A stretch of DNA of 64,000 bases from [Enterobacter] lignolyticus SCF1 (GTDB lineage: Bacteria > Pseudomonadota > Gammaproteobacteria > Enterobacterales > Enterobacteriaceae): the NCBI RefSeq assembly GCF_000164865.1, contig NC_014618.1, positions 661,753 to 725,752 on the forward strand. Direction: 5' to 3'. Made by a program: the position numbers and the translations under genes. Shown here piece by piece: positions 35,933-64,000 of this stretch (positions within the stretch are counted from its first letter, which is position 1; the number at the start of each line of letters is the position of its first letter). Below the pieces are notes generated by a model. That model saw only the letters and a list, made by a program, of their open reading frames with translations. It ran no database searches and was not told the DNA's origin.

Positions 35933-35979
35933 TGGTGGCCCCTGTTGGGTTTGAACCAACGACCAAGCGATTATGAGTC
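35933..35979 (-). repeat. 47-nt 3' fragment of a tRNA-Ile(CAU)/ileX-like gene (anticodon loop to CCA); att-type repeat of the integrative element
   Basis: The minus strand reads GACTCATAATCGCTTGGTCGTTGGTTCAAACCCAACAGGGGCCACCA. This matches the 3' two-thirds of tRNA-Ile2, as I remember ileX (GACTCATAATCGCTTGGTCGCTGGTTCAAGTCCAGCAGGGGCCACCA), with compensatory T-stem changes. No 5' acceptor strand (GGCCCCT) follows, so it is not a complete gene. Confidence 0.6.
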
Positions 35980-36103
35980 ATAAAATAGGCATGTTTCTAA
36001 TCGTTCGCTATTGACGCTTATTGTATTTTTAATTGTCTATAATCAATCGGTTATGATGTTGTTTTTGTTTCTGATTGGTTGTCTCGTCTCCCCATTGTAC
36101 TAT

Positions 36104-36153
36104 CGTTACCTGACCCATTACCTGACCCAAAATGGGCATCGGGTCAGGTAACG
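36104..36153. repeat. TTACCTGACCCA motif cluster (two direct and one inverted copy) between the att repeat and int
   Basis: CGTTACCTGACCCATTACCTGACCC...GGGTCAGGTAACG has 13-bp perfect inverted arms. The same 12-mer recurs at 41433-41444 and as a 7-copy tandem array at 63880-63963. Confidence 0.6.
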
Positions 36154-36176
36154 CTTATCCTTAGAAAGGTAACCTC

Positions 36177-37511
36177 ATGGCCGCTAATCTTACCGAGACT
36201 GCTATACGCGGATTGAAGACAAAAAGCACGTCGTACTACGTGTGGAACAATAGTGCTCAGCGTGGTACCGGCAGGCTTGGCGTTAAGGTTCAGCCTTCAG
36301 GCAGCAAAGTTTTTTATTTCCGTTACTACGTTGAGAAAGGGAAGAAAGAGAAATTCATTCAGTTGGGCATCTGGCCTGAGATGAAACTGGTGACGGCCAA
36401 TGAGCTGGCGAAAAAATATGGTGCCTGGCTTATTGAAGGAAAAGAACCTCAGCAAGAGCTTGAGCAACAGCGCCTGGCCGAGCAGCACATCATGCAGCTT
36501 CATCGCTCGCAGGGCTCGTTTAAAGAGCTGGTACATGGCTACGTTAACAAGATGAAGCTCGACAATAAGCGGACCTGGGCCGATGTTCTGAAGCGTCTTG
36601 AAAAAGAGTGCTATTCAGTCATTCCTCGTGAGACCAAAGCGAAAGATGTCACGCCCTTACAGATCAAAACGATCTTGTCAGCCATTATCCAGCGTGATGC
36701 GGTGGTCCATGCAAACCGAATTCGTTCCTATCTGATGGCGGCATTCAACTACGGGCTTAAAGCCGATAACGATCCGATGAATACTAGCGTGGGCATTACG
36801 TTTGGGCTTGAAGTTAATCCGGTATCGGCTATACCGAAGCAGTCCTCAGCGGAGAAAGTCGGTGATATATGGCTAACGCTGGAAGAACTACGAGTCGTCA
36901 TGGAGCAGTTCGCTAAGGCAACTAACGTTGGGCCTTTGATGCAGCATCTCATCCGATTCTGTGTTTATGCGGGCGGGCAGCGTCCATTCGAAATGATTGC
37001 CAGCCAGTGGAGCGCGATTGACTGGCAGCAGAAGACGTTGCTGGTTATTGCCGATGTATCGAAAAACAAGCGTGAACACCTGATCCCGCTGACTGAATCG
37101 GCGTTACAGGAATTAGCCTCAGTGAAAGAGTTGACTAAGGAAAGTAACAGTCCCTACATCTTCCCACTCTCGACTAACGGCGAGCGACCGGTGCGCACCG
37201 ACAGTCTGGCGCGTTCCATCATGTATTTCAGAGCTTTTAATCCTGAATTTAAAGTATTCACAGCGCGAGATTTACGTCGGACCTGTAAAACGTTAATGGG
37301 GGAAGCAGGGATCAGCAAAGAGATCCGCGACCGTATCCAGAATCACGCTTTGAATGACGTCAGCTCGAAACACTATGATCGTTATGATTACTTACCTGAA
37401 AAGCGCAGGGCGCTTGAGATCTGGGAAGATAGGGTCAACAACTATCAGCGACAGCAGGAAAATAACGTTGTGAACTTGTTTGGACGGAGGCAAGAGCTTG
37501 GCAAAATATGA
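36177..37511 (+). CDS. int: P4-type (tyrosine recombinase) integrase
   Basis: 444 aa. It has an N-terminal arm-binding domain and a C-terminal catalytic domain (R..HxxR..Y motifs: LRRTCKTLMGEAG, HALNDVSSKHYDRYDY). It is adjacent to the tRNA-fragment att repeat. Confidence 0.85.
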   Translation: MAANLTETAIRGLKTKSTSYYVWNNSAQRGTGRLGVKVQPSGSKVFYFRYYVEKGKKEKFIQLGIWPEMKLVTANELAKKYGAWLIEGKEPQQELEQQRLAEQHIMQLHRSQGSFKELVHGYVNKMKLDNKRTWADVLKRLEKECYSVIPRETKAKDVTPLQIKTILSAIIQRDAVVHANRIRSYLMAAFNYGLKADNDPMNTSVGITFGLEVNPVSAIPKQSSAEKVGDIWLTLEELRVVMEQFAKATNVGPLMQHLIRFCVYAGGQRPFEMIASQWSAIDWQQKTLLVIADVSKNKREHLIPLTESALQELASVKELTKESNSPYIFPLSTNGERPVRTDSLARSIMYFRAFNPEFKVFTARDLRRTCKTLMGEAGISKEIRDRIQNHALNDVSSKHYDRYDYLPEKRRALEIWEDRVNNYQRQQENNVVNLFGRRQELGKI

Positions 37512-39409: not shown

Positions 39410-39646
39410 ATGAGTACAACATTTATTACACCTACTCCGGAAGAACGCCTGAAAGTCCTGCGTAATTACGGTGAGCAAAGCGAGCGTCTGGTTCGTGAAC
39501 GGGAGCGTCAGGTCATCACATCCATTTCTCGCTCTACCGCGTGGAAGCTTGAAAAGGCTGGCAAGTTTCCGCAACGTAAATCACTTGGGGTGAAGTCGTG
39601 TGGTTGGTTGCTTAGCGATCTTCTTTACTGGATAAACGAAAGGTAG
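39410..39646 (+). CDS. alpA: AlpA-family phage/island transcriptional regulator (excisionase-like)
   Basis: 78 aa with a typical AlpA HTH (ISRSTAWKLEKAGKFPQRKSLG...LLSDLLYWI). Confidence 0.8.
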   Translation: MSTTFITPTPEERLKVLRNYGEQSERLVRERERQVITSISRSTAWKLEKAGKFPQRKSLGVKSCGWLLSDLLYWINER

Positions 39647-41228: not shown

Positions 41229-41474
41229 CTTCAGAGTAACTGAGGTTATCCAGATTGATATTTTTTGTTCCTAAGGTCAGTAACGCTGCGGCTTTAGTTT
41301 AAATTATTAGGGAGGGCAATTAATGGGTTTTAACTGGTATATGTAATATACCTTCATTAATGTTCTAATCTTATATCTGTACATCCCCCTGCAGGGATTA
41401 TATCCAACATCACATGGGTAGCGTGAGGGCTACCCATTACCTAATGATTAATATTTACAGAATGAAGGATTATT

Positions 41475-43949: not shown

Positions 43950-45793
43950 ACTAGCGGCAATTCAAAACACTTCACCGGTTTCCCATCCTGCATTTCTACC
44001 AGTAACCGTGCAGATTGTGGTTGCTCTACCAGCAATCCCTGTTGGAATTGCCCGAACGACAAATGGGCTTCTTCAATAGCCATCTTTTGCTGCAGTAAAG
44101 TCGTTGTGGTCCATTTCCGCAGCAATACTTTATTGGCATTTGTCGTATTACTCTGTTCCGCCAGGGCACTGATGCTTTGTATTCTCTGCTGTAGCTGACG
44201 CTCAACATTTTCAATCACGCCGTCGAACTGCTGATAGGTATCTGCAATGGTTCTATGGCGCTGCTTGACGAGTTTCGAGTTCCGTTCGGCATGTGTCAGA
44301 AGATGCAACGCTTGCGCACGCACTTTCATGGTAAGGTCCCATTCGTGGATGCGCTCCTCAAGGACATTTTGCTGGTTTTGGATTTTTTGCGTAATTTCCG
44401 TACTGCCAAAGAGCCCACGATCTTTCAGCGATTGAATTTTGTCGCCAGTATTTGAAATATCAGTCAGCAAGTGTGCCTGCAGGGCGGAGAACTGGACTTC
44501 AATATCCTCCAGTTTTTGGCGTATTGCTGGCGAACATTGCTCCTCAATAACCACGGGAGTAATTTGCTGCAAATACTGTATGGCCCCAATGATCTCTGAC
44601 TTGCGCGCGTTATTCTGGAATGCAGAAACTTCACGTACCGCCTCAACAATTTCCGTCAATTTCTTGCTGATATCAGCCAGGTGCTTTTGCGCTAGCACGG
44701 CAGAAGCAACATTCAACAACATACCGGCGTTAACAAGCTGACTGAGTTTGTCAGGATTCAGCAGAACGGCATGTTCTTTAATCCCTTTTTCTCCCAGGCT
44801 GAAGCCTCGGAAACCTGGGCCATCTTTTACACTCGCCAGAGGACCATTAATAATGACCTCCATATATTGATGGCTGGCAATATGTGTAGAGGCCGCCAGA
44901 GAGGGTAATGTTTGCAACAGTGGGCTCAACCGTGAAATACCGGTAATATCCTGCTCCTGCATCGCACCGGTGTTGATACTTTCCGAAGGTGGAATTGTAG
45001 CAACCGTAAGCGCAGGTTGGTGAATATCATGCCCAAAACCCCAGCGTTGATCGTATATGAGAGCAGGCATCGTGGCGGATGATGGCCGGGTGGCAAGCCG
45101 GAACTGGCGGGAGTTTTTTAAGCGAATCCAGGCAATTTGCACCACGCAAGGCAGTGTCACTCGAAACGCGGGGTTTGAGATATCATAGGCCGTATACAAG
45201 CCGGTAATAGCCAGGCCAACTGGCCCTGTTAATACACCCAACACACGCCCGATGCCAAGCCCTGCAATTAAAGGTAGCACTTTGCCTGCTGTCGTTTGAG
45301 CAAGGCCATTGGCAACTAATGCCGCTTTCTGCCAGACGGGGATGTCCAGACTGACAGAGGCGCTAATGCCCATACCACGCAGAATCTGGCGGCGCTCATC
45401 ATCCGACATTTTTTTCCATGATGAGGTAAAGACACAGTCAATAATCAGCGCTTCTTTTTCTTCTACCGATGCAGCGGCCTGAACCTTCATCTTCAGATGG
45501 CTGGCAACGTCATCTACAATTTCGCTGTAGCTGACGCCATTGCGACGAAACAGATTCACGAACGTATTACCACCGAAATGCTGTAACTCCCGTACAAGCA
45601 GGCGCAGAGTTTCTTCATCAGGTATATCCTGGTGTTTGGCGTCCTGTAATACGGCCTTTACGCTGTCTGACATGGAAAAACCAAACTTACCGGTGTTAGT
45701 GACGTAATCGATCAGCAGATCTATATCGCCTTTATCTGCGTTCAACAGCAGTTGAACCAGCGCTTCATCACCCTGGATATCTATCTCACTCAT
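43946..45793 (-). CDS. Large membrane-associated coiled-coil protein (615 aa; N-terminal soluble domain, Gly-zipper hydrophobic segment, long C-terminal coiled coil)
   Basis: A hydrophobic, Gly-rich stretch (ALVANGLAQTTAGKVLPLIAGLGIGRVLGVLTGPVGLAITGLYTAY) is followed by roughly 300 aa of Q/E/K-rich heptad-like helix. No NTPase motifs are present. Confidence 0.45.
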   Translation of the reverse strand: MSEIDIQGDEALVQLLLNADKGDIDLLIDYVTNTGKFGFSMSDSVKAVLQDAKHQDIPDEETLRLLVRELQHFGGNTFVNLFRRNGVSYSEIVDDVASHLKMKVQAAASVEEKEALIIDCVFTSSWKKMSDDERRQILRGMGISASVSLDIPVWQKAALVANGLAQTTAGKVLPLIAGLGIGRVLGVLTGPVGLAITGLYTAYDISNPAFRVTLPCVVQIAWIRLKNSRQFRLATRPSSATMPALIYDQRWGFGHDIHQPALTVATIPPSESINTGAMQEQDITGISRLSPLLQTLPSLAASTHIASHQYMEVIINGPLASVKDGPGFRGFSLGEKGIKEHAVLLNPDKLSQLVNAGMLLNVASAVLAQKHLADISKKLTEIVEAVREVSAFQNNARKSEIIGAIQYLQQITPVVIEEQCSPAIRQKLEDIEVQFSALQAHLLTDISNTGDKIQSLKDRGLFGSTEITQKIQNQQNVLEERIHEWDLTMKVRAQALHLLTHAERNSKLVKQRHRTIADTYQQFDGVIENVERQLQQRIQSISALAEQSNTTNANKVLLRKWTTTTLLQQKMAIEEAHLSFGQFQQGLLVEQPQSARLLVEMQDGKPVKCFELPLV

Positions 45794-45828: not shown

Positions 45829-48744
45829 TTAAAACCCGCGCATCCCATTGATAAATGTTTCAATCACATCACGCACACGGTCATAGACACGTGCCCGCAC
45901 GTTTTTGCGTTCCAGAATCTTCGGCGTCCAGGTCAGCGTTTCTGCCACTTCATCCTCTCGCGGCATCACGTCGGTAAAGAGGTAGTTATCCAGTAAGCCG
46001 GTCAGTTTGATGGAGTCGAGTCGCTCTTCGCTGCACAGGGTAGCCAGCGCCTTACCTTTTTCCTGTTCGACATAGGCTTCAAACACCTGAGTGATATCTT
46101 CGTCATGCGAGGCATGCAGCAAACTTTTTTCAATAAAGTTATCGATAAGCTCACGTTTACTGCGCAGCGTGACGTCGCTGTCGACAATATCCATGATCTT
46201 TTTCTTCTGCTCCTGCTGCTCTTTTGGCGGCATCGCCTGAATGCCTGCCAGCAGACGCAGAATGTAGCCGACGTTAATTTCGTCGCGATGAATCAGCGAG
46301 ACTTCAAAATCCACGTCTTCAAGAATCGAGACTTTCTCTTTACTGGAGTGCTTTTTCACCTTGTCGTGAATATCGAGGTACTTACTGGTGAAATCCGCCA
46401 GCGTCTGGTCCGATAGCGGTTTAGCCGCATCGTCAAAATCGGCAAAGCTTTCGAGGATGTTTTTCAAACGCATCACATCGCGAAATGCTGTTACAAATGC
46501 CAGCTGTGCCTCTTCATCCGGTAAACCGTCCACGCTCTCCACCGTTGGCGTCAGCGCTAACAAACGATCTACAGCGTCCTGATAATCCCCAAAGTACTCG
46601 TCAAAGGGCTTCACCAGCACCACAGAAGAAGCATCTTTGTTCGAGAACAGGGCAATAGCATCGTCGGTCGCTTTCTTCAGATTACGAAAGCAGACAATAT
46701 TCCCGTGGCTTTTCTTTTCGTTAAGGATGCGGTTAGTGCGGGAAAACGCCTGTACCAGGCCGTGAAAACGCAGGTTTTTATCAACATACAGCGTGTTCAG
46801 CGCAGGGCTGTCGAAGCCGGTGAGGAACATATTCACTACCAGAAGAATATCGATGCCTTTCTCTTTGGTGCGCTGAGCAATATTTTTGTAGTAATTGTAG
46901 AAGCTCTTTGAATCATTGGCCGAGTAACTGGTGCCATACAGCTCGTTATAATCCTCAATAAAACTATCCAGATGATCGCGACTTGAGGTGTCAACTTTCG
47001 CCCCCTGCGGCAGGCTGATATCTTCTTCATCCAGCAGGCCGTTTACCGCCTCTTTATCACTTTTGTCCGCTTCATTGGCGGCGTAGGTGAAGATGGTGGC
47101 AATCTTTAACGGCTTGTAATTGGCATCCGCCGCTTGCAGTGCGGCCTGCTTTTCTTTAAAGAGTTTGTAGTAGGTGATCAGCATATCGACTGACCCGACG
47201 CAGAACATAGCGGTGAACTCGCGATTGCGAGTCTTGGCGTTATGATGAGCAAGGATATAGTCGGTGATTTTGCCCAACCGGATGTCGCTTTCCATTACCT
47301 CTTTGGTGTCGATATCTTCCACATCAATATCGATCTCATTGCTGCTCTCTTTGCGCTTGTACGTACCGACATATTCCACGGCAAAGCGCAGAACGTTTTC
47401 ATCCCGGATAGCGTCGACAATCACGTATTTATGCAGGCATTTATCGAACAACAGTTCGGTGGTCTGTTTGACACCGTTGGTGATATTGACGTTATTGGCA
47501 AAGATTGGCGTCCCGGTAAAACCAAACAGCTGAGCATTCTCGAAGAAATTCACGATCGCTTTATGCGTATCACCGAACTGGCTGCGGTGGCATTCATCGA
47601 AGATAAAGACGATGCGCTCTTTGCGCAGGTGTGCGAGCTGCGCTTTATACCCTTCATGGGTGATAGCGTTATTCAGCTTCTGAATAGTGGTCAGGGTCAG
47701 TTTGGTGCTGCTTTGCTTAAGATGTTTTATCAGCGTACTGGTGTTGTTGGTGGTATCCACGCTGTCTTTCGCAAAGCCGTTGAACTCTTTCGCCGTCTGA
47801 TAATCCAGATCCCGGCGATCGACCACAAAAATGACCCGATCCACTTCTGGCATTTCCATGATCACCTGACTGGCTTTGAACGAGGTCAGCGTTTTACCGG
47901 AGCCGGTGGTGTGCCAGATATAGCCGTTCTCCGGCCGTCCCTGCTTGTGGAGATTGTCCTTCACATGGTGGATCATCGCCTCACAGGCGTAAAACTGATA
48001 GGGGCGCATCACCATCAGGCACTTACGGGTTTCGTTCAGCACTGTGTAGTGAGTGATCATTTTGGCGATGTGACACACTTTCAGAAATGCGTCGGTGAAT
48101 TTCTCCAGCGCTTTGAGCGGATTATTCTTTTCATCGGTCCAGAAGAAGGTCTGCTCGAAATGGTTGGCGCGGTTGTTGGCGTAGTATTTGGTATCCACGC
48201 CGTTGCTGATAATAAAGATCTGCACATACTGGAACAGGCCGCTGCCGACCCAGAACGCATCGCGATGATAACGATTGATCTGATTAAAGGCTTCTTTCAG
48301 CCCCAGGCCGCGACGCTTAAGTTCGATCTGCACCAGCGGCAGTCCGTTGATCAGCAGCGTGACGTCGAAGCGAGTTTTGCGTGTGTTTTGCTCGGCGTTG
48401 AACTGCTTCACCTGACTCGTTACCTGAAACTCGTTCTGGCACCACTCCTCTTTATTGATAAAGCTGAGCCATTTCTCGGTGCCGTCATCTCGCAATAACT
48501 GGTAGCGATCGCGCAGGATCTTAGCGCGATCGATGACTTCATTGCCTTTGGTTAGATGCAAAAAAATACGGTTAAATTCGCTATCAGTTAGCGGAGCTTG
48601 CTCCAGCCGGTTGTGAATTTCGATCTGCTTTCGCAGGTTGGCTTTCATACTAGCTTCATCGGTGACATTCACCCGTTCATAGTGCATGCCCACCAGCTGC
48701 TCCACCAGCTGCGTTTCTAACTCGTATTCGCTTTGCGTTGCCAT
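45829..48744 (-). CDS. hsdR: Type I restriction enzyme R subunit (HsdR, type IC/EcoR124-like)
   Basis: It has a PD-(D/E)xK nuclease region, SF2 helicase motifs (TGSGKT, DECH, FTGTPI) and a type-IC-like helical C-terminus. The start is MATQSEYELE at 48744 (AAGG upstream), or 48810 if extended. Confidence 0.85.
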   Translation of the reverse strand: MATQSEYELETQLVEQLVGMHYERVNVTDEASMKANLRKQIEIHNRLEQAPLTDSEFNRIFLHLTKGNEVIDRAKILRDRYQLLRDDGTEKWLSFINKEEWCQNEFQVTSQVKQFNAEQNTRKTRFDVTLLINGLPLVQIELKRRGLGLKEAFNQINRYHRDAFWVGSGLFQYVQIFIISNGVDTKYYANNRANHFEQTFFWTDEKNNPLKALEKFTDAFLKVCHIAKMITHYTVLNETRKCLMVMRPYQFYACEAMIHHVKDNLHKQGRPENGYIWHTTGSGKTLTSFKASQVIMEMPEVDRVIFVVDRRDLDYQTAKEFNGFAKDSVDTTNNTSTLIKHLKQSSTKLTLTTIQKLNNAITHEGYKAQLAHLRKERIVFIFDECHRSQFGDTHKAIVNFFENAQLFGFTGTPIFANNVNITNGVKQTTELLFDKCLHKYVIVDAIRDENVLRFAVEYVGTYKRKESSNEIDIDVEDIDTKEVMESDIRLGKITDYILAHHNAKTRNREFTAMFCVGSVDMLITYYKLFKEKQAALQAADANYKPLKIATIFTYAANEADKSDKEAVNGLLDEEDISLPQGAKVDTSSRDHLDSFIEDYNELYGTSYSANDSKSFYNYYKNIAQRTKEKGIDILLVVNMFLTGFDSPALNTLYVDKNLRFHGLVQAFSRTNRILNEKKSHGNIVCFRNLKKATDDAIALFSNKDASSVVLVKPFDEYFGDYQDAVDRLLALTPTVESVDGLPDEEAQLAFVTAFRDVMRLKNILESFADFDDAAKPLSDQTLADFTSKYLDIHDKVKKHSSKEKVSILEDVDFEVSLIHRDEINVGYILRLLAGIQAMPPKEQQEQKKKIMDIVDSDVTLRSKRELIDNFIEKSLLHASHDEDITQVFEAYVEQEKGKALATLCSEERLDSIKLTGLLDNYLFTDVMPREDEVAETLTWTPKILERKNVRARVYDRVRDVIETFINGMRGF

Positions 48745-48802
48745 CAGTGTGTAGTGCCTTTTATTATTTTGTAGGCCCGGAGTTGGTCGGGCCGGATGAT
48801 TT

Positions 48803-49987
48803 TTATACAAACATTTGCTGGAGCAGGCCTTGCTTCCAGGTTTTCAACTTGTCCAGTTCTGCTTTTTTGACGGCGATTTTATCGTCAAGAGCAGAGAGGA
48901 AGTTGGCGATTTTGCTTTGTTCTTCCAGACATGGATAGAAAACAAATGTTGATGAAATGGTATCCCAATCAGCTCGTGGCATTTTAGAACCTGTTGATTT
49001 ATTAGCTAGATTAATAAAAAAATCAGTCTGAATAAATTGGTACAAATAAGAGTTGTTTATTAAAATCCCCTTGAAAACCCAAATTTCAGAAGAACATACG
49101 CCATCAAAAGTAGCTAATATGTATTTTCTGAGATACGGACGTAGTTTCCCGAAAAGAACATCTCCTTTTTTAAATACATTCTTTATGCTTTGCTGCTGTG
49201 TTGAATCCAACGTGGTTAATAACTGCCCATCCCTCTGCGAAATACAGTCCATTTCGATGCAAGGATAATTTATCCCACTTAGGGGATTGTATTTTTTACT
49301 TTTATTAGAGAATAAAGATGAGATTTCATCGTAATTCCACTCAGGAAACTCTTCCCCATTCTCATCTTTAAACCGTAATTCCTGATTAAAAATCTTCTGC
49401 ATCATGCCTTTTTTGTACTGGCATAGCAGGTCGTACTGCTGGTTCAGTAACGTGATTTTATCGTCAACCGAGGAAAGAAAATCAGCGATTTTGGTTTGTT
49501 CATCATATTGGCAAAGGGGGATTTTTATTTTCCCTATTTCTTTTAGGGATAAAAAAGGTTGGGCTCCACCAGAGGTTAGCTCATGAAATAATTTTTTAGC
49601 ATTTTTTCTTTGAACCTGAAGCAAATAAAAAGGATATATTTTGTTTTTATTAGGCTTTACCAATGCGACATTTTTCAAACTAAATTCGTAATCCACGGTA
49701 TTTAACGCACAAGTGCCCGTTCCAGCGCCAATATTAACGATTAAGAGATCATTTTTTTCTGGATTACATCTTTTATAAATAAATGAATGGGTTAACTTAT
49801 CAAGATAATAGCAATTTTTATAATCGATATAACCATCTTTAACATGGATTGCTGTTAAATAAGGAACCCCTTCACTCGTAGTATCCGGCGTATCGTGAGT
49901 ACCATCAGTAATCTTTGTCGCTAATTTCGACAATAGAGTCATCGTCCATTCTTCTTTAAACCCCCCAAACCGCAACTTCGGCACCAT
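48803..49987 (-). CDS. hsdS: Type I restriction-modification specificity subunit HsdS (two TRDs)
   Basis: 394 aa with the canonical HsdS N-terminus (MVPKLRFGGFKEEW), two variable TRDs and central and C-terminal conserved coiled-coil repeats (QTKIADFLSSVDDKI, QSKIANFLSALDDKI). Confidence 0.85.
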   Translation of the reverse strand: MVPKLRFGGFKEEWTMTLLSKLATKITDGTHDTPDTTSEGVPYLTAIHVKDGYIDYKNCYYLDKLTHSFIYKRCNPEKNDLLIVNIGAGTGTCALNTVDYEFSLKNVALVKPNKNKIYPFYLLQVQRKNAKKLFHELTSGGAQPFLSLKEIGKIKIPLCQYDEQTKIADFLSSVDDKITLLNQQYDLLCQYKKGMMQKIFNQELRFKDENGEEFPEWNYDEISSLFSNKSKKYNPLSGINYPCIEMDCISQRDGQLLTTLDSTQQQSIKNVFKKGDVLFGKLRPYLRKYILATFDGVCSSEIWVFKGILINNSYLYQFIQTDFFINLANKSTGSKMPRADWDTISSTFVFYPCLEEQSKIANFLSALDDKIAVKKAELDKLKTWKQGLLQQMFV

Positions 49988-51594
49988 TACTTATTCCCCT
50001 CCGCCAATGTAAACGGCGAATCAATCCCCAGCGCCTTGCAGAACCCGGCAATAGTCTTATCAATCTCCGCCACTTTCCCTTCCAGATCACGGATTTCCTG
50101 CGCCACGGCGTTGAGATCAATCTCTTCTTCCGCTTCAAAGGTATCGACATAGCGAGGAATATTTAGGTTGTAATCGTTGTTACGGATCTCTTCCAGCGTC
50201 GCGATATGGCTGTATTTCTCGAGTGCTTTCCAGTCGTTGTAGGTATCGGCGATTTTATCGATATGCTCGGGCAACAGTCGGTTCTGGGTTTTCACCTTCT
50301 CAAAATCGTTGCTGGCGTCGATAAACAGAATACTGTCGTTGTGCTTACGACACTTGCGCAGTACCAAGACGCAGGTCGGAATGCTGGTGCCGTAGAAGAT
50401 ATTGGCAGGCAGGCCGATCACCGCATCGATGCAGTTCAGCTTCTCAATCATAAACTGACGAATATGGCCTTCCGCTGCGCCACGGAATAGCACGCCGTGT
50501 GGCAGAACCACCGCCATGGTGCCGTCATCTTCCAGGTGATGGAACATATGCTGTACAAACGCCATATCAGCCTTGCTGGACGGTGCCAGTTTGCCGTACT
50601 GGGCAAAGCGGTCATCGTTCATAAATAGCGGACTAGCGCTCCACTTGGCGGAGAACGGTGGGTTGGCGACGATGGCGTCAAATTTCAGATGCGTATGCTG
50701 CGGGTGTTCCAGCGTATCTTCCTGAATGATTTCAAAATCGGCATAGTGAACCCCGTGCAGGATCATGTTCATACGCGCCAGGTTGTAGGTGGTACGGTTC
50801 ATTTCCTGACCGTAGATTTTACCCACCGATGAGGCTTCACGCTTCACGCGCAATAACAAAGAGCCAGAGCCACAGGTCGGGTCATACACATTTTTGAGCT
50901 TCAGCTTGTGAGTGGTGACGATTTTAGCCAGCAGAGTGGAAACCGGCTGTGGGGTATAAAATTCACCTGCTTTCTTACCTGCGCCTGAGGCGAACTGGCC
51001 GATCAGGTACTCGTAGGCATCCCCCAGAATGTCGGAACTGGCTTCGCTCAGGTTAAAGCTCAGTTTGTCGAGTTCAGTGACGACTTTGCCGATCAATTCG
51101 TTTTTCGCTTTCGCAGTATTACCAAGCTTGCTTGAGCCTAAATCGAGATCTTCAAACAGGTTGCTGAAGTCATCCGCAGAATCAGTGCCCAGCGTGCTCT
51201 GTTCAATGTTGCGTAGGGTAGTGGCGAGGTCTTCCAGAATAAAGCCAGTACCTGTGCCTTTGGGGTCTTTAGCCACACGTTCTGCCATGGTGTGGAACAA
51301 ATCCGTTGGCGGTAGGAAATAGCCTAAAGTTTGGATACTGTCCTCTTTTACCGCATCAACGATATCCTGATACGCCGGATGTTCCGCAGTCAGTTCATTG
51401 TACTGAATGCCATCTTCCGCCAGAATTTTGTTCGCATACGCGACAAATTTTTCTGACAGGTATTTGTAGAAGATAAAACCTAGGCAGTAGTCGCGGAATT
51501 CATCGGCATTCATTTTACCGCGCAGGGTATCGGCGATATTCCACAGGCGGCCTTGCAGTTCACTTAAATTTTGCGCTTCAATCTGGGGAGACAT
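49987..51594 (-). CDS. hsdM: Type I restriction-modification N6-adenine DNA methyltransferase HsdM
   Basis: 535 aa with the N-terminal HsdM_N domain (LWNIADTLRGKMNADEFRDY), an AdoMet motif (DPTCGSGSLL) and the catalytic NPPF (VANPPFS). Confidence 0.9.
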   Translation of the reverse strand: MSPQIEAQNLSELQGRLWNIADTLRGKMNADEFRDYCLGFIFYKYLSEKFVAYANKILAEDGIQYNELTAEHPAYQDIVDAVKEDSIQTLGYFLPPTDLFHTMAERVAKDPKGTGTGFILEDLATTLRNIEQSTLGTDSADDFSNLFEDLDLGSSKLGNTAKAKNELIGKVVTELDKLSFNLSEASSDILGDAYEYLIGQFASGAGKKAGEFYTPQPVSTLLAKIVTTHKLKLKNVYDPTCGSGSLLLRVKREASSVGKIYGQEMNRTTYNLARMNMILHGVHYADFEIIQEDTLEHPQHTHLKFDAIVANPPFSAKWSASPLFMNDDRFAQYGKLAPSSKADMAFVQHMFHHLEDDGTMAVVLPHGVLFRGAAEGHIRQFMIEKLNCIDAVIGLPANIFYGTSIPTCVLVLRKCRKHNDSILFIDASNDFEKVKTQNRLLPEHIDKIADTYNDWKALEKYSHIATLEEIRNNDYNLNIPRYVDTFEAEEEIDLNAVAQEIRDLEGKVAEIDKTIAGFCKALGIDSPFTLAEGNK

Positions 51595-52493: not shown

Positions 52494-54815
52494 ATGAGAA
52501 TGCATTTGAGAAAGCTGGCAGTCCGTAATTTCAGAAGGCTGCACGATGTTGTTATCGATCTTGCGTCAGACATTTCAATTTTCGTAGGGGCGAATAACAG
52601 TGGTAAGACTTCTGTCGGTCATGCACTTCAACTATTCACCGGTAAAAGCCGATTCAATATTCATGACTTCAATGCTGAATGTTGGACTGACATTGTCACA
52701 TTTGGAGAAGGGGCGGATGCTGCGTCGCTACCTTCACTGGAACTTGATATTTGGTTTGAAGTAACACCGAATGATGTTCATCGTGTAGTCGATCTTCTCC
52801 CCAGCCTATCGTGGTCAGGTTCTCTGGTTGGAATGCGCGTTGCTTTTTCCCCCATCAATCCTGAAGAAATCCGTTCGCGCTTCCTCGCAGTACGTCAGCT
52901 TGCTATCGATGCCACACCTAAAGATGAAAATGGAACTCTCAAATACGATCCTTCACCTCGTAATCTTTGGGAATATCTTCGCGATAGACTCAATGACGAA
53001 TATGAACTCCGCTATTATGTTCTTGATCCCGCACATTTCAATGCGGAAATGATATCCGAGGAAGGCTATGAGCCTACTCCGCTCACAGGGCGTGATCGAA
53101 GTGGTCGCGAAATACTGAACAGCCTTATCCAAATCAACTTTTTGAATGCTCAGCGTCATCTTTCAGATGGTTCCGGAGGTTCCCGTTCGGAGGATCTTTC
53201 TCGTGTTCTCAGCCGTTTTTACGGACGAAATCTTGAACAAAAAGGTGAAGATTACGAAGCATTAATTGCTTTAGCTGCGTCTGAATCAGCTTTCAATCAG
53301 CATCTTGAACGCGTTTTTGCACCTACGCTGAAAAGTCTGGCGAAACTCGGATACCCTGGACTTTCAAACCCACGCATGATGATTCGTTCGGCCTTAGATC
53401 CGGCGCAGATCATGAACAACCAAAATGGGGCCGTAATACATTACGCGCTGGGGGAGGATGACGGTAATCCTACCCCACCAACACTACCCGATAGTTATAA
53501 CGGGCTTGGATTTAAGAATCTGATCTTTATGGTTGTTGAATTACTCGACATCCACAACCAATGGTTAGCAATAGAAGAGAATCGACCACCGGTTCACCTG
53601 ATTTTTATTGAAGAGCCAGAAGCTCATCTCCACGCACAGTTACAGCAGGCTTTTATACGCAAGATAATGGACCTTCTTGCCATGGAGAGTCAGGAGCTTA
53701 TGCACTACACCACTCAAGTGGTGGTGACTTCTCATTCAACTCATATTCTTTACGAACGTGGTTTTCGGCCGATCCGTTACTTTCGGCGGAAGCGTTCATC
53801 AAATATGTCGGCAACAGATGTGCTCAATCTCTCTGTTTTTTATGATAATACTGATCCTGAAATTCGAGATTTTCTTGAGCGTTACTTGAAGCTGACCCAT
53901 TGTGATTTGTTTTTTGCCGACGGGGCTGTACTTGTAGAAGGCAATGTTGAGCGGCTACTGCTCCCGCAAATGATTGCTACCGCCGCACCTAGATTAAAAT
54001 CCTCTTACCTAACAGTCCTTGAGATTGGCGGTGCTTTTGGCTATCGATTCCAAAAACTAATTGAATATCTTGGGCTTACTACACTCATTATTACTGATCT
54101 GGATAGTGTGTACTGTACCCCTCCGGAACAGGATGCAACAGAAGCTCGAGCAGATGAGTTAGATGGTCTTGCAGAAAATCCGGCTGCAAATGATGATGGC
54201 GAGGAACCTGATGATGATGAGGAAGAACAGGCCAACACAGAAACACCAGGAAAGGCTTGTATTGCCAGTCATCCTGGAGCTATGACCTCTAATCAAACAC
54301 TTCGGCAGTGGTTACCGAAATGTGACACCGTTGTCGCTTTATGGGAAGCAACTGAGGAAATGAAAATACAAAGCCGCACAGCTGAGTGTGACGCTTTGGT
54401 TCGTGTTGCTTACCAGTGCCAGACAGATGTTACATGGAAAGAGGAAACACTGGCACTTGCTGGTCGTACTTTAGAGGAAGCTTTTGCACTTGAAAACCTG
54501 TCTTGGTGTCAGGATGTGAGCTGTAAGCCACTCAAGCTACGCATTGCCAGAGCTGTAAGTATGGACCTACTGCAACTGGCCCAGCGCATTCACAAACGCG
54601 TGCAATCAAAAAGCTTCAGTAAAACTGATTTTGCTCTGAATTTACTTCTTAAAAAACCGGATGAATGGTCTGTCCCAACATACATTGCTGAAGGATTAAA
54701 ATGGCTCGAAGCTGAAATAGCCCCGCCGGAACTAGAAGTTGCAGAAGGTCAGGAAGAGAATGTTCAGGATATGTCCGTCGCTCTGGCTGAAACTGATGGT
54801 GGGAGGGTTGCATGA
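52494..54815 (+). CDS. OLD-family ATP-dependent nuclease (ABC-ATPase N-domain plus TOPRIM; Gabija GajA-like/class 2 OLD)
   Basis: 773 aa. It carries a Walker A (FVGANNSGKTSVG), ABC signature and Walker B region (LIFIEEPEAHLH), a C-terminal TOPRIM-like acidic motif (DGAVLVEGNVERLLL) and an acidic low-complexity insert (DDGEEPDDDEEEQ). Confidence 0.65.
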   Translation: MRMHLRKLAVRNFRRLHDVVIDLASDISIFVGANNSGKTSVGHALQLFTGKSRFNIHDFNAECWTDIVTFGEGADAASLPSLELDIWFEVTPNDVHRVVDLLPSLSWSGSLVGMRVAFSPINPEEIRSRFLAVRQLAIDATPKDENGTLKYDPSPRNLWEYLRDRLNDEYELRYYVLDPAHFNAEMISEEGYEPTPLTGRDRSGREILNSLIQINFLNAQRHLSDGSGGSRSEDLSRVLSRFYGRNLEQKGEDYEALIALAASESAFNQHLERVFAPTLKSLAKLGYPGLSNPRMMIRSALDPAQIMNNQNGAVIHYALGEDDGNPTPPTLPDSYNGLGFKNLIFMVVELLDIHNQWLAIEENRPPVHLIFIEEPEAHLHAQLQQAFIRKIMDLLAMESQELMHYTTQVVVTSHSTHILYERGFRPIRYFRRKRSSNMSATDVLNLSVFYDNTDPEIRDFLERYLKLTHCDLFFADGAVLVEGNVERLLLPQMIATAAPRLKSSYLTVLEIGGAFGYRFQKLIEYLGLTTLIITDLDSVYCTPPEQDATEARADELDGLAENPAANDDGEEPDDDEEEQANTETPGKACIASHPGAMTSNQTLRQWLPKCDTVVALWEATEEMKIQSRTAECDALVRVAYQCQTDVTWKEETLALAGRTLEEAFALENLSWCQDVSCKPLKLRIARAVSMDLLQLAQRIHKRVQSKSFSKTDFALNLLLKKPDEWSVPTYIAEGLKWLEAEIAPPELEVAEGQEENVQDMSVALAETDGGRVA

Positions 54816-56689
54816 CCAGTCGCATTGGTAGCCCTGATACACAGGCAGATATTGATGTTCGTATTTGTCTGGATAGCTCGCCACCACGTTCATTTGTCAT
54901 GGTGGCTGGTGCTGGTTCAGGTAAAACAACATCTCTTATTAAAGCCTTGGCACATTTGGCTGATACCCGTGGTTCTGCTTTACGTCGTGCCGGGCAAAAA
55001 ATATCCTGTATAACGTATACAGAAGTAGCTGTTGGTGAGATTGCCGCTGACGTTGGTAACTCACAGTTATTTCATATTTCAACCATTCATAGCTTTCTTT
55101 GGTCGATCATCCGACCTTTTCATTTAGATATCGCAAAGTGGGTCGTAGCGCGAATACATGAAAAAATAGCTGAAAAGCAAGCCCATTATGATAAGCCCAG
55201 AACACAAGCTAAAACAAAATCTCGTCTTGAAGATGAAATTGCCTATCTCTCTGCTCAACTTGAGTGCATTGATGATATTGATAAATTTATCTACGGGACA
55301 GGAAGTAACTATGCTAAGGGTATTCTAGGACACGATGATATTCTTAAACTCGTCCCTGCTTGTGTTGAGGCTCATCCACTTTTGAGAAGGATTGTAGCCA
55401 AGCGCTTTCCATTTGTTTTTGTCGATGAAAGTCAGGATACCGATCCTGATGTGATCTCTGCGCTTCGAACTATTGCTAATGACAATCCTGACATGTGCAT
55501 AGGATTTTTTGGTGATCCGATGCAGAAAATCTATATGAGCGGAGCTGGTGCTATTCCGTTAAGTGATGGGTGGGCTGAAATTACAAAACCAGAGAATTTC
55601 AGATGTCCGACGTCTGTACTTGGTGTTATCAATTCGATTCGAGCTTCTGGGGATGGCCTCCAACAAATTCGTGGCCGAAAAACTATCGTAGATGGTGTTG
55701 AACAGACTGTATTAGGCACAGTGAATCTTTTCATCTTGCCTTCAAATGTGGAACGAAGTGCCTATCTCACATCTGTCAGACGTTACCTTGCAAATGAAAC
55801 TAGCGATGAACAATGGCTAAGTGATACACGCGAAGGTGATGTTCGTCTGCTTGTTTTGGTGCATCGTATGGCAGCTAATCGACTGGGATTCCCTAATTTA
55901 TTTTCTGCCCTTACTGATAAAGCACCGATGAGCTTGAGTGAAGGGGTGAACGATGGGTCAGCTTGGCCGCTTCGCCCATTTGTCCAGCATATCCTTCCAA
56001 TTTTTGCGGCGGCTCAGGCAAACGATCAATTTCAGATTATGTCGATTATGCGTAACGAGTGCCCAAAGCTGGAGCCATCACGACTGCATGGTCAAGCTAT
56101 GGTGGCAGTCTTAAATGAACTACAACAAGGCATCAATGGCCTGCTTGCACTGTTGGAAGATGGATCGCAAGCAACAGTTCGGGATATATTGCGACACGTT
56201 AGAGACTGTGAACTGCTACGTCTTGACGATCGTTTTGATAATCATTTAAGTGATGAACCTGTGAACGATGGTAATGATGACTTCGAAAATGTTCAGAACT
56301 ATCTAAGATGCAATGCCCATGAACTTTGGGCGTACCGACGCTACCTTTCAGAGGAATCACCTTTTGCCACTCATCATGGTGTAAAAGGTGCACAGTTCGA
56401 GCGAGTGTTGGTTGTTATCGATGATGAAGAGGCTCGCTTCAGCCAATATTCGTATGGAAAATATTTTCAATACATTCCCCTATCCGACAATGATCTAGCC
56501 AATCTTGAAGAGGGGAGAGAGTCAGTACTCGACCGTACTCGTCGTCTTTTTTATGTATGTTGCTCCCGTGCACTGAAAGACTTGGCTGTTGTCATCTTTG
56601 TTCCAGATGTCGCCGTCGCTCAAGCGGCAATTATTGCGCAAAATTTATTCCCGGCATCGGTAATTCTAAGGGCGCACGATCTGGTCTAG
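54812..56689 (+). CDS. UvrD/PcrA-like SF1 helicase (Gabija GajB-like partner)
   Basis: 625 aa with a Walker A (VAGAGSGKTTSL), motif II (VFVDESQDT) and C-terminal helicase motifs (YRRYLSEESPFATHHGVKGAQFERVLVV). Its start overlaps the OLD stop (ATGA). Confidence 0.65.
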   Translation: MTSRIGSPDTQADIDVRICLDSSPPRSFVMVAGAGSGKTTSLIKALAHLADTRGSALRRAGQKISCITYTEVAVGEIAADVGNSQLFHISTIHSFLWSIIRPFHLDIAKWVVARIHEKIAEKQAHYDKPRTQAKTKSRLEDEIAYLSAQLECIDDIDKFIYGTGSNYAKGILGHDDILKLVPACVEAHPLLRRIVAKRFPFVFVDESQDTDPDVISALRTIANDNPDMCIGFFGDPMQKIYMSGAGAIPLSDGWAEITKPENFRCPTSVLGVINSIRASGDGLQQIRGRKTIVDGVEQTVLGTVNLFILPSNVERSAYLTSVRRYLANETSDEQWLSDTREGDVRLLVLVHRMAANRLGFPNLFSALTDKAPMSLSEGVNDGSAWPLRPFVQHILPIFAAAQANDQFQIMSIMRNECPKLEPSRLHGQAMVAVLNELQQGINGLLALLEDGSQATVRDILRHVRDCELLRLDDRFDNHLSDEPVNDGNDDFENVQNYLRCNAHELWAYRRYLSEESPFATHHGVKGAQFERVLVVIDDEEARFSQYSYGKYFQYIPLSDNDLANLEEGRESVLDRTRRLFYVCCSRALKDLAVVIFVPDVAVAQAAIIAQNLFPASVILRAHDLV

Positions 56690-62988: not shown

Positions 62989-63858
62989 TTGGTGGGCGCG
63001 TTTGCTTTTTACGGACAAACTATCATGCAAACAGAAGCTGAAGTATTAACCGAACATAGCGAGCTAATTTACTCGACCAGTATTGAACGCATAGTGACAG
63101 GCCGCGATACAGCACTAAAAAAGATCGAGCAACTCATCCAACAACTTGATGCCATCTCACGGTTAACCTCAGAAATTGGCGGGGGTACAGCGCAAGACTG
63201 GGCGATGAAGGCCGGGCACCGTTACGATAGCTGGATGACCGAAAAGGTAGATAAAGCGCTGCCTGCCGTCACCCGCAATATTGACTGTAGTATCTGGCGA
63301 GACTTGATGTTGAAGTCTGGCATGATGGCCTTGATGGATGCTCAGGCCCGTGACCAGTGGCATAAGAACCTGGAGGAGGGGGAGCTACCCGCCATTAGCG
63401 AGGCGAATATCCTCAGTACTTTTGAGCAGCTACATCTGAACAAAATGGATGTATTTGAGCGTGGCATTATCAATGTCTTCAAAGGGCTGTCGTGGGATTA
63501 CAAAACCAATAGTCCCTGCAGCTTTGGTAAAAAGATCATCGTCAACAATTTGGTGACGCATAACCGCTGGGGATTTAGTTTGAATTGGGGTTGGCGTAGG
63601 GATCAACTGGCGGATCTGGAGCGAATGCTATTTCTGCTGGATGGTAAACCGATACCCGAAAACCGTGGCGATGTTACTACACGGTTGATGGAGCATATTC
63701 GGGACAACCCTTCGAAGGATGTCTACGAAGATGATTTTTTCAGTATCCGTTATTTTCAGAAAGGAACCGCGCACATCACTTTTAAGCGGTACGATCTGAC
63801 AGAAAAGATGAATGATATTGTGGCGAAGCACTATCCGGGGATGCTGGCAGCGAGATGA
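62989..63858 (+). CDS. DUF4942-like protein conserved downstream of cbtA in CP4-type islands
   Basis: About 277-289 aa. The start is ambiguous: 62989, or 63025 at MQTEAEV. The position and size match the yeeW/ykfB-type genes. Confidence 0.45.
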   Translation: MVGAFAFYGQTIMQTEAEVLTEHSELIYSTSIERIVTGRDTALKKIEQLIQQLDAISRLTSEIGGGTAQDWAMKAGHRYDSWMTEKVDKALPAVTRNIDCSIWRDLMLKSGMMALMDAQARDQWHKNLEEGELPAISEANILSTFEQLHLNKMDVFERGIINVFKGLSWDYKTNSPCSFGKKIIVNNLVTHNRWGFSLNWGWRRDQLADLERMLFLLDGKPIPENRGDVTTRLMEHIRDNPSKDVYEDDFFSIRYFQKGTAHITFKRYDLTEKMNDIVAKHYPGMLAAR

Positions 63859-63879
63859 AGAGGGCAGGGAGGCAATTCC

Positions 63880-63963
63880 TTACCTGACCCATTACCTAAC
63901 CCATTACCTAACCCATTACCTAACCCATTACCTAACCCATTACCTGACCCATTACCTGACCCA
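63880..63963. repeat. Seven tandem copies of the 12-bp unit TTACCTRACCCA
   Basis: The array is TTACCTGACCCA x1, TTACCTAACCCA x4, TTACCTGACCCA x2, directly after the DUF4942 gene. It is the same motif as next to int (36106-36151) and at 41433-41444. Confidence 0.9.
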
Positions 63964-64000
63964 AATCGCATCCAAAGAAAAAGGAGTCAGACGATTTCTC

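What the first reader, a model, noticed from the sequence alone, without database searches (positions are those of the whole stretch)
63880..63963. 12-bp TTACCTRACCCA iteron-like motif: 7-copy tandem array at the distal end, inverted pair beside int, single copy before the yfjJ-like gene
The same 12-mer occurs in three places. It occurs as 2 direct plus 1 inverted copy at 36104-36153, forming 13-bp perfect inverted arms between the att repeat and int.

It occurs once at 41433-41444, embedded in a 9-bp perfect hairpin (ATGGGTAGC...GCTACCCAT) upstream of the yfjJ-like gene. It occurs as 7 perfect tandem copies at 63880-63963 near the distal end of the island.

The distribution, next to the integrase and near the far end, suggests arm-type binding sites for the integrase or for AlpA or a Xis-like factor. 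Alternatively they could be iterons for a replication initiator of the satellite-like element. There are no spacers, so this is not a CRISPR array.
Basis: seen in the sequence. Interest (0 to 1): 0.5.

Follow-up and report, generated by a model that had tools for sequence, protein, structure and literature searches.

The report
Expanded integrase arm-site repeats of island
The 12-base repeats sit on both sides of the attachment site of a mobile genomic island, in the layout annotated as arm repeats in phage P4, so they are most likely docking sites for the island's own integrase; only the growth from two to seven copies in this strain is unusual.

Summary
The repeats are real. There are 7 perfect tandem TTACCTRACCCA units at 63880-63963, and 2 direct units plus 1 inverted unit at 36106-36151. 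The third "copy" at 41433 is a rotated 13-nt partial match, and relatives do not conserve it.

The window comes from [Enterobacter] lignolyticus SCF1. It holds an island of about 28 kb inserted in tRNA-Ile(CAU). The two repeat clusters lie on the two arms of the island's att site:
- one lies 57 nt from the tRNA 3' end;
- the other lies 124 nt from the 47-nt tRNA fragment and 48 nt before the int ATG.

All 47 loci found in about 35 species place the dimer in one of these two positions. Spacing is fixed even where flanks and cargo are unrelated.

Integrase homologues of 81-50% identity carry a tandem 12-mer dimer at the same place, often with an inverted copy. The motif changes with the integrase lineage. 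One variant motif was also found on a distal arm at the 57-nt spacing.

The phage P4 record annotates the same layout as "attP arm sequence repeat".

Verdict: these are arm-type integrase sites of a P4-family recombination module. The distal dimer has expanded to 7 units, probably by slippage. The iteron reading is rejected. Binding by AlpA is not excluded. This is a new member of a known kind, of modest interest.

The parts
63880..63963 (+). Distal (P-arm) cluster of arm-type repeats: 7 tandem 12-mers TTACCTRACCCA. Relatives have 2. The two units nearest the core are G-type, like the dimer in relatives.
   Evidence: Relatives have 2 copies at this position, 57-58 nt from the tRNA-Ile 3' end. 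Yersinia rohdei has 3 copies.
63964..64000 (-). Start of the 57-nt spacer between the array and the tRNA-Ile 3' end. It contains the left half of a terminator-like hairpin (AAGGAGT...). The window ends here. By analogy the intact tRNA-Ile(CAU) would begin at about 64021, outside the window.
   Evidence: The sequence matches the spacer of L009 and L014, where the hairpin and the intact tRNA follow. The tRNA position is inferred.
36106..36129 (+). Int-proximal (P'-arm) dimer of the same 12-mer, in the same orientation as the distal array.
   Evidence: Same position in 13 genome loci and in E. coli strain 1506, whose int matches at 77% nt; the ~417 E. coli genomes with a similar ~77% int match were not inspected for the dimer.
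36140..36151 (-). Inverted copy (TTACCTGACCCG), 10 nt after the dimer and 25 nt before the int ATG. It corresponds to the inverted repeat at the P4 int start.
   Evidence: Present in the 89-98% Int clade and absent in the 85% clade.
35935..35981 (-). 47-nt 3' part of tRNA-Ile(CAU): the att core repeat at the int end of the island. The likely crossover is at the anticodon loop TTATGAG, 35973-35979.
   Evidence: identical to the 3' part of the tRNA in L001. The T-arm polymorphism pattern and truncated junctions place the exchange at the anticodon loop (inference).
36177..37511 (+). Tyrosine integrase with an N-terminal arm-DNA-binding domain: the proposed reader of the 12-mers.
   Evidence: Pfam Arm-DNA-bind_3 1.2e-12, Phage_int_M, Phage_integrase. 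BLASTP against P4 Int gives E 5e-12 at 20% identity. Identical to ADO46943.1 of [Enterobacter] lignolyticus SCF1.
36041..36053 (+). Exact IHF consensus (AATCAATCGGTTA) between the core and the int-arm dimer: a possible bending site.
   Evidence: One of only 4 matches in the 64 kb. Kept in the E. coli 1506 clade but not in more distant lineages. Weak evidence.
36075..36103 (+). Possible weak int promoter: TTGGTT, 17 nt, TACTAT. It ends 2 nt before the first 12-mer, so bound integrase would sit over the transcription start.
   Evidence: Read by eye. Both blocks are conserved in the diverged E. albertii / E. coli 1506 arm. The consensus scan did not call it. Inference only.
39410..39646 (+). AlpA-family small DNA-binding protein: candidate excision factor and the alternative reader of the repeats.
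   Evidence: Pfam Phage_AlpA 3.7e-14. Homologues follow int in L059, L060, L064 and L065.

Best explanation
The 12-mers are the arm-type binding sites of a P4-family tyrosine integrase. That integrase moves an island of about 28 kb in and out of tRNA-Ile(CAU).

In the excised circle the layout would be, in order:
1. the DUF4942 gene;
2. the [12-mer]n cluster;
3. a 57-nt spacer;
4. the 47-nt tRNA 3' part, with crossover at the anticodon loop;
5. a 124-nt spacer with an IHF-like site;
6. the [12-mer]2 dimer;
7. 10 nt;
8. the inverted 12-mer;
9. 25 nt;
10. int.

The N-terminal arm-binding domain of Int would hold these sites while its catalytic domains hold the core. That bridges arm and core into the recombination complex.

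The int-side sites lie just downstream of the likely int promoter, so the same binding would also repress int, as in P4 and KplE1.

The seven-copy array is the normal distal dimer enlarged by replication slippage. The four inner units carry a G-to-A change at a position that is G in all but one of the related motifs, so they may be weaker or inert sites.

What is shown: positions, spacing, conservation, co-variation with the integrase lineage, and equivalence to the P4 layout. What is inferred: binding by Int, autoregulation and slippage.
For: **Both arms.** The dimer is the only long word shared by the two att arms, in the window and in 10 genome pairs.

**Only two contexts.** All 47 loci from about 35 species that contain the dimer place it in one of two positions.
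- 33 loci have it 57-58 nt before a tRNA-Ile 3' end.
- L003 has it about 58 nt before a truncated tRNA-Ile 3' fragment; this one was classified by eye.
- 13 loci have it 126 nt after the tRNA fragment and about 48 nt before an int homologue.

**Independent of flanks and cargo.** In Vibrio, Salinivibrio and Providencia the flanks and cargo are unrelated (HipBA, HamA). The dimer and its spacing are nevertheless the same.

**Co-variation with the integrase.** Int homologues keep a tandem 12-mer dimer at the same place, often with an inverted copy, but the sequence differs.

| Int identity | Motif at the int arm |
|---|---|
| 81% | TTACCTGACCCA/...CCTC |
| 70% | CTACCTGACCCA |
| 57% | TTACGTCACCCA |
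| 54% | TTACTACAGGTA |
| 53% | TTACTTGACTAA |
| 50% | TTGTTTGACTAA |

**Variant motif on a distal arm.** TTACGTCACCCA x2 also occurs on a distal arm, exactly 57 nt from a tRNA-Ile 3' part (L070).

**Domain.** The integrase has the Arm-DNA-bind_3 domain.

**P4 precedent.** The P4 record NC_001609 annotates 12-bp 'attP arm sequence repeat' features in the same arrangement: two tandem on each arm and one inverted at the int start.

**CP4-57.** K-12 CP4-57 shows 12-bp-period dimers on both arms plus an inverted copy before intA.

**Autoregulation precedents.** Panis 2010 (PMC2951348) shows that arm-type sites overlapping an int promoter give autoregulation. It also reports that P4 Int represses its own gene by direct DNA binding, citing Piazzolla 2006.

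**Slippage.** Copy number also varies elsewhere: 3 and 4 units on the int arm in L051 and L052, and 3 on the distal arm in Y. rohdei.
Against: - No binding data exist for this integrase.
- An AlpA-family gene travels with int in most of these islands, and its sequence diverges in step with the motif too. Co-variation therefore does not separate Int from AlpA.
- The simple promoter scan does not call a promoter upstream of int.
- The strict IHF consensus is kept only in close relatives.
- The Vibrio and Salinivibrio genomes with a TTACCTGACCCA distal arm gave no second hit. Their int arm either differs from the exact pattern or is missing.
- For the variant motif, the int arm (L061) and the distal arm (L070) come from different contigs.
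Confidence: 0.8

Rival explanations
1. The 12-mers are binding sites for the island's AlpA-family protein, acting as recombination directionality factor or transcription factor, rather than for the integrase. AlpA would coat the direct repeats, bend the arms and control int.
For: - An AlpA gene is present at 39410-39646 and in most related islands.
- AlpA divergence tracks the motif classes as well as Int divergence does.
- Directionality-factor sites are typically direct repeats about one helical turn apart (abstract of PMC7498355).
Against: - The sites lie on both arms and in inverted orientation next to int. That is the pattern of integrase arm-type sites in P4, as the record annotates them.
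- By textbook knowledge, directionality factors usually occupy one arm.
- The Xenorhabdus locus L058 keeps the motif but has no AlpA gene within 3 kb downstream of int.
- The integrase carries a dedicated arm-binding domain that needs such sites, and no other shared repeat exists in the arms.
Confidence: 0.1
2. The array is a set of iterons for a replication initiator of a satellite-like element, such as the DUF3987/YfjI or Gp2-like protein.
For: - Tandem direct repeats resemble iterons.
- The island encodes DUF3987 and an inovirus-Gp2-like protein.
- In P4 the cis replication region lies close to the attP arm.
Against: - The repeats keep a fixed distance to the tRNA core on both arms in 47 loci.
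- They are retained in islands with unrelated cargo.
- They co-vary with the integrase.
- They are normally only two units long.
- In the P4 record the replication repeats (8 and 10 bp) are annotated separately from the 12-bp att arm repeats.
- The partial match near the Gp2-like gene is not conserved.
Confidence: 0.02
3. The repeats are operators for some other regulator of int or of the neighbouring genes. Alternatively, the five extra units are a neutral microsatellite with no role at all, with only the ancestral dimer functional.
For: - The seven-copy state was seen only in this strain. Of the 47 genome loci, 46 have 2 units and one has 3.
- The first 20 of the 50 E. coli matches end after about two units. 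Two of them were read directly and have 2 units.
- The inner units carry a substitution at a position that is G in all but one of the related motifs.
- A 46-aa minus-strand ORF across the array is a by-product of the repeat.
Against: - The neutral-expansion part is compatible with the main explanation and is already included in it.
- A separate regulator is not needed to explain the both-arm geometry, and none is conserved next to the sites.
Confidence: 0.08

Closest known systems
Satellite phage P4 attP 'arm sequence repeats' (annotated in NC_001609; from memory, first described by Pierson & Kahn 1987)
   Same: - The units are 12 bp.
- Two tandem direct copies lie on each side of a core that is the 3' part of a tRNA gene.
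- One inverted copy lies at the start of int.
- The integrase has the same domain make-up.
- The spacings are similar: 53 nt and 112 nt in P4 against 57 nt and 124 nt here.
   Different: - The motif sequence is unrelated (TTGGGGGCAT.. against TTACCTGACCCA).
- The integrases share only 20% identity.
- The target is tRNA-Ile(CAU) rather than leuX.
- The identity block is 47 nt against a 20-bp core.
- The tRNA reads in the opposite direction relative to int, so int lies at the end far from the intact tRNA.
- The distal cluster is expanded to seven units.
KplE1 (CPS-53) IntS arm-type sites overlapping the intS promoter (Panis et al. 2010, PMC2951348)
   Same: The arm-type sites lie between the tRNA-derived core and the int start. 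The att arm overlaps the int promoter region, which gives negative autoregulation.
   Different: - The integrase lineage and motif are different.
- Binding and regulation are demonstrated in KplE1 and only inferred here.
- In KplE1 int adjoins the intact tRNA. Here it adjoins the tRNA fragment.
Cryptic prophage CP4-57 of E. coli K-12 (IntA, AlpA, YfjI, YfjJ ... YfjZ-YpjF)
   Same: - The island gene order is the same: int, alpA, DUF3987, yfjJ-like, then antirestriction, radC-like, DUF987 and cbeA/cbtA.
- Its two arms carry 12-bp-period dimers: TAGGCCCAttgaTAGGCCCA, and TAGGACCAacaaTGGGACCA. An inverted copy lies before intA.
   Different: - IntA is only 26% identical to this integrase.
- The target is ssrA.
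- The motif is different and more degenerate.
- I know of no published assignment of these CP4-57 repeats; I only saw them in the sequence.
ICEMlSymR7A IntS P1-P5 arm-type motifs (PMC11963761)
   Same: The attP of a tRNA-integrating element carries several short arm-type motifs. All are required for integration, and IntS bound to attP shuts off intS.
   Different: There are five dispersed 10-bp motifs rather than tandem 12-mers. The element is conjugative and comes from a different bacterial class.
Plasmid or phage iterons (for example the P4 ori/crr repeats)
   Same: They are short tandem direct repeats bound by an element-encoded protein.
   Different: Iterons sit at an origin next to a replication gene. 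These repeats sit at fixed distances from the recombination core on both arms, and they follow the integrase lineage.

Membership tests
P4-type attP arm repeats (integrase arm-type sites) | A tyrosine integrase with an N-terminal arm-type DNA-binding domain is encoded next to the site | tested here: met
   Pfam Arm-DNA-bind_3 (1.2e-12), Phage_int_M and Phage_integrase. BLASTP against P4 Int gives E 5e-12.
P4-type attP arm repeats (integrase arm-type sites) | The same short motif lies on both arms flanking the core of the attachment site, and differs from the core sequence | tested here: met
   The distal cluster is 57 nt from the tRNA 3' end and the int cluster is 124 nt from the tRNA fragment. 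The dimer is the only long word shared by the arms.
P4-type attP arm repeats (integrase arm-type sites) | P4 layout: tandem 12-bp direct pairs on each arm plus an inverted copy at the int start | tested here: met
   Window searches compared with the P4 features and sequence. The inverted copy is missing in the 85% Int clade.
P4-type attP arm repeats (integrase arm-type sites) | Motif specificity follows the integrase lineage | tested here: met
   Homologues from 81% to 50% identity carry different 12-mers at the same position. One variant is also found on a distal arm. AlpA co-varies too, so this does not identify the protein.
P4-type attP arm repeats (integrase arm-type sites) | The integrase binds the motif, and the motif is needed for recombination | not testable with these tools
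   This needs EMSA or footprinting and attP mutant recombination assays.
Iterons of a replication origin | The repeats lie at an origin, next to or recognised by a replication initiator gene, and do not depend on att geometry | tested here: not met
   Spacing to the tRNA core is fixed in 47 loci. The repeats are present in islands with unrelated cargo. No replication gene is adjacent.
Recombination directionality factor (Xis/AlpA-type) sites | Direct repeats confined to one arm, between the core and the outer arm-type site | tested here: not met
   The motif is on both arms and also inverted. Actual binding by AlpA is not testable here.
Dispersed genomic repeats (REP-like) | Many copies scattered through the chromosome, outside mobile-element ends | tested here: not met
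   The 36 kb of non-island DNA in the window has no in-register match to the unit at <=1 mismatch; two rotated 1-mismatch hits (19538, 27973) fit chance. All 47 dimer loci in the species-representative genomes are att arms.
CRISPR array | Repeats separated by unique spacers | tested here: not met
   The units are head to tail with no spacers.

The most novel reading that the evidence does not exclude
The copy number of arm-type sites may be a slippage-prone 'dial'. Expansion or contraction of the 12-mer clusters (2, 3, 4 and 7 units seen) would change how much integrase is captured on each arm. That would heritably tune int autoregulation and the excision or integration frequency of the island. 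On this reading the seven-unit SCF1 allele locks the island, or alternatively destabilises it.
Probability: 0.12. Interest if true: 0.5.

Novelty: new member of a known kind. Interest (0 to 1): 0.27.

Why it matters
The work gives a concrete, testable map of the recombination module for a widespread family of islands. These islands target tRNA-Ile(CAU) in Enterobacterales and Vibrionaceae and carry defence cargo. Here the cargo is Gabija and a type I restriction system; in the Vibrio relatives it is HamA and HipBA.

The map covers the core at the anticodon loop, the two arm clusters, their spacing, and a series of integrase-motif pairs. That series could be used to study how arm-site specificity evolves, or to build orthogonal integration tools.

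The biology itself is expected for a P4-family integrase. The seven-copy expansion is a curiosity unless it proves to affect island mobility.

Tried and rejected
- **Copy at 41433 as a third site: rejected.** It is a rotated partial match. The non-hairpin part varies among five relatives.
- **Iterons: rejected.** Geometry, cargo independence and the separate repeat classes in the P4 record argue against them.
- **A coding or RNA role for the array.** The only ORF is a 46-aa minus-strand by-product absent from two-copy relatives. There is no Rfam match anywhere in the window.
- **Literature search for the motif.** The only hit was an unrelated paper. Searches for ileX islands and for P4 arm sites found no description of this motif. 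Piazzolla 2006 is not held.
- **Distal arms for the other variant motifs.** Scans of the viral collection for TTGTTTGACTAA, TTACTTGACTAA and TTACTACAGGTA dimers found nothing. The metagenome scan gave only one more int-arm example.
- **Separating Int from AlpA by co-variation: failed.** Both diverge in step with the motif.
- **Consensus promoter scan upstream of int.** It found no plus-strand site. The promoter I propose is weak and was read by eye.
- **ARAGORN on the window.** It finds no tRNA in the window, because only a 47-nt fragment is present and the intact gene lies just past base 64000.

Full report
**1. The observation**

The array at 63880-63963 is seven head-to-tail copies of TTACCTRACCCA. 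Position 7 reads G,A,A,A,A,G,G (TRF gives 7.0 copies).

A second cluster lies at 36106-36151. It has two perfect direct copies, then 10 nt, then an inverted copy with one mismatch. This gives 13-bp perfect inverted arms at 36104-36116 and 36141-36153.

At <=1 mismatch there are 11 matches against 0.25 expected, and no shuffle reaches 11.

An independent assembly of a public read set (Logan contig L068, run SRR070256) reads G,A,A units and then breaks inside the array. So the variant units are not an artefact of one assembly.

The claimed third copy at 41433-41444 is only a rotated 13-nt identity, ACCCA|TTACCTAA.

**2. Context**

The window is from [Enterobacter] lignolyticus SCF1. RtcR and the integrase are identical to ADO46941 and ADO46943.

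At 35935-35981 the minus strand carries the last 47 nt of tRNA-Ile(CAU). ARAGORN finds no full tRNA in the window. From there to the window end runs a CP4-57-like island with these genes:
- integrase, 36177-37511, with Arm-DNA-bind_3, Phage_int_M and Phage_integrase domains;
- Fic;
- AlpA, 39410-39646;
- DUF3987/YfjI;
- a YfjJ/Gp2-like protein;
- a type I restriction system;
- Gabija GajA/GajB;
- antirestriction, RadC-like, DUF987, CbeA and CbtA proteins;
- DUF4942, ending at 63858.

In E. coli relatives the DUF4942 gene is followed by two copies of the 12-mer. Then comes a 57-nt spacer with a terminator-like hairpin, then the intact tRNA-Ile on the minus strand, at either ileX or ileY. The last 37 nt of the window match that spacer. 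By inference the intact tRNA starts about 20 nt past the window end.

The two clusters are therefore the two arms of the island's attachment site.

**3. Comparative evidence**

*Where the dimer occurs.* A scan of one genome per species for the dimer found 47 loci in about 35 species. These include Enterobacterales, Providencia, Vibrio and Salinivibrio. Every locus falls in one of two contexts:
- 33 loci have the dimer 57-58 nt upstream of a tRNA-Ile 3' end, after the last island gene;
- L003 is the same kind of locus, with a truncated tRNA fragment (classified by eye);
- 13 loci have the dimer 126 nt after the tRNA fragment and about 48 nt before an int homologue.

*Independence from flanks and cargo.* In the Vibrio group the flanks and cargo are unrelated (HipBA, HamA). 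The dimer and its spacing are unchanged there. The pattern search fixes the motif itself, so the informative facts are position, spacing and the unrelated surroundings.

*Shared words.* In the window and in 10 genome pairs the dimer is the only long word shared between the two arms.

*Copy number.* It is 2 almost everywhere:

| Copies | Arm | Where |
|---|---|---|
| 3 | distal | Yersinia rohdei (L042) |
| 3 and 4 | int | two IMG/VR contigs (L051, L052) |
| 7 | distal | this window only |

**4. Co-variation with the integrase**

I fetched upstream DNA for integrase homologues. All lie about 190-200 nt after a tRNA 3' fragment. Most carry a tandem 12-mer dimer about 45-70 nt before the ATG, often followed by an inverted copy. 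The sequence changes with the lineage:

| Int identity | Motif | Source |
|---|---|---|
| 81% | TTACCTGACCCA / TTACCTGACCTC | Xenorhabdus |
| 70% | CTACCTGACCCA TTACCTGACCYG | metagenome, Providencia |
| 57% | TTACGTCACCCA CTACGTCACCTG, plus inverted copy | metagenome |
| 54% | TTACTACAGGTA, four direct copies | Zobellella |
| 53% | TTACTTGACTAA x2, plus inverted copy | V. parahaemolyticus |
| 50% | TTGTTTGACTAA x2, plus inverted copy | Salinivibrio tandem junction L031 and metagenome L053 |

The prediction that a variant motif should also occur on a distal arm was met once. IMG/VR contig L070 has TTACGTCACCCA x2, then exactly 57 nt with a hairpin, then the tRNA-Ile 3' part.

AlpA diverges in parallel with Int. 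This series therefore ties the motif to the recombination module, but it does not by itself say which protein reads it.

**5. What is known**

The GenBank record of satellite phage P4 annotates six 12-bp 'attP arm sequence repeat' features:
- two tandem on one arm, 53 nt from the core;
- two tandem on the int arm, 112 nt from the core;
- one inverted, overlapping the int ATG;
- one inside int.

This is the layout seen here. The window integrase is a distant P4 Int homologue with the same domains.

K-12 CP4-57 shows 12-bp-period dimers on both arms plus an inverted copy before intA.

Panis et al. 2010 (PMC2951348) showed that IntS arm-type sites overlap the intS promoter and give negative autoregulation. 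They also report that P4 Int represses its own gene by direct DNA binding, citing Piazzolla 2006.

ICEMlSymR7A has five required arm-type motifs, and attP-bound IntS shuts off intS (PMC11963761).

I found no paper that mentions this particular motif.

**6. Mechanism proposed**

*Shown.* The two-arm geometry, the fixed spacing, the co-variation with the integrase lineage, and the equivalence to P4.

*Inferred.*
- Int's N-terminal domain binds the 12-mers while its catalytic domains bind the core at the anticodon stem-loop.
- Crossover is placed at TTATGAG (35973-35979) for three reasons. In several genomes the intact tRNA carries an island-type T-arm while the int-side fragment keeps the native one. 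A secondary-site insertion (L013) keeps only ATTATGAGTC. Truncated junctions end at that point.
- An exact IHF consensus lies between the core and the dimer (36041-36053). It is one of 4 matches in 64 kb and is kept only in close relatives.
- Conserved TTGGTT-17-TACTAT blocks end 2 nt before the first 12-mer. Bound Int would then occlude the start of int transcription. The consensus scan does not call this promoter.
- The seven-unit array is most simply a slippage expansion of the distal dimer. The two core-proximal units keep the ancestral G-type sequence and the 57-nt spacing. The four A-type units alter a G that all but one of the related motifs keep, so they may bind poorly.

**7. Rivals**

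It is less likely because the sites lie on both arms, because an inverted copy exists, and because the integrase has a dedicated arm-binding domain.
- Iterons are rejected.
- The copy upstream of the yfjJ-like gene is rejected. The hairpin there is conserved, but the TTACCTAA part is not.

**8. Verdict**

This is an ordinary and well-understood kind of feature: P4-type arm repeats. It was previously undescribed for this integrase lineage and is unusually expanded on one arm in this strain. Novelty: new member of a known kind. Interest: 0.27.

Noticed in passing
window 41336-41352 and 41414-41437: A perfect palindrome GGTATATGTAATATACC and a 9-bp-stem hairpin (ATGGGTAGC-N6-GCTACCCAT) lie upstream of the YfjJ/inovirus-Gp2-like gene (41475-42173). 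Both are invariant in five islands whose flanks are 75-84% identical. They could be an operator or nick site for the Gp2-like protein.
   Followed up: partly
window 52494-56689: A Gabija defence pair: GajA (E 6e-260) and GajB (E 2e-234) by PADLOC. Next to it are a type I restriction-modification system (45829-51594, minus strand), a JukA-like N-terminal domain protein (43946-45793) and a PD-(D/E)XK protein (43161-43949). The island is a defence island.
   Followed up: partly
L031 (Salinivibrio sharmensis), L044, L047, L041, L003: In these loci the distal arm and a tRNA 3' part truncated at the anticodon loop abut another integrative element. In L031 that element is a second island whose integrase has its own 12-mer (TTGTTTGACTAA). 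These are tandem arrays of different islands in the same tRNA-Ile gene.
   Followed up: partly
L013 (Tenebrionibacter intestinalis): The int arm is joined to non-tRNA DNA that shares only ATTATGAGTC with the normal site. This looks like a secondary-site insertion that marks the crossover region.
   Followed up: no
window 35935-36177 and the window end: The integrase gene sits at the end of the island far from the intact tRNA and is transcribed towards it. In CP4-57 and KplE1 int adjoins the intact tRNA. The intact tRNA's 3' part and its terminator hairpin are supplied by the island's distal arm.
   Followed up: partly
window 63831-63971 (minus strand): A 46-aa ORF encoding GNGL/GNGS repeats runs through the array. 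It exists only because the 12-mer is in frame, so relatives with two units cannot encode these repeats.
   Followed up: yes
window 37480-38112: A Fic/DOC-family gene overlaps the 3' end of int by about 30 nt. It travels with int in most close relatives.
   Followed up: no
L066 693-751 and L067 482-506 (E. coli K-12 CP4-57): The arms carry 12-bp-period dimers: TAGGCCCAttgaTAGGCCCA before intA, with an inverted TGGGCCTA, and TAGGACCAacaaTGGGACCA about 75 nt before the ssrA 3' repeat at the far end. These are probably the IntA arm-type sites.
   Followed up: partly
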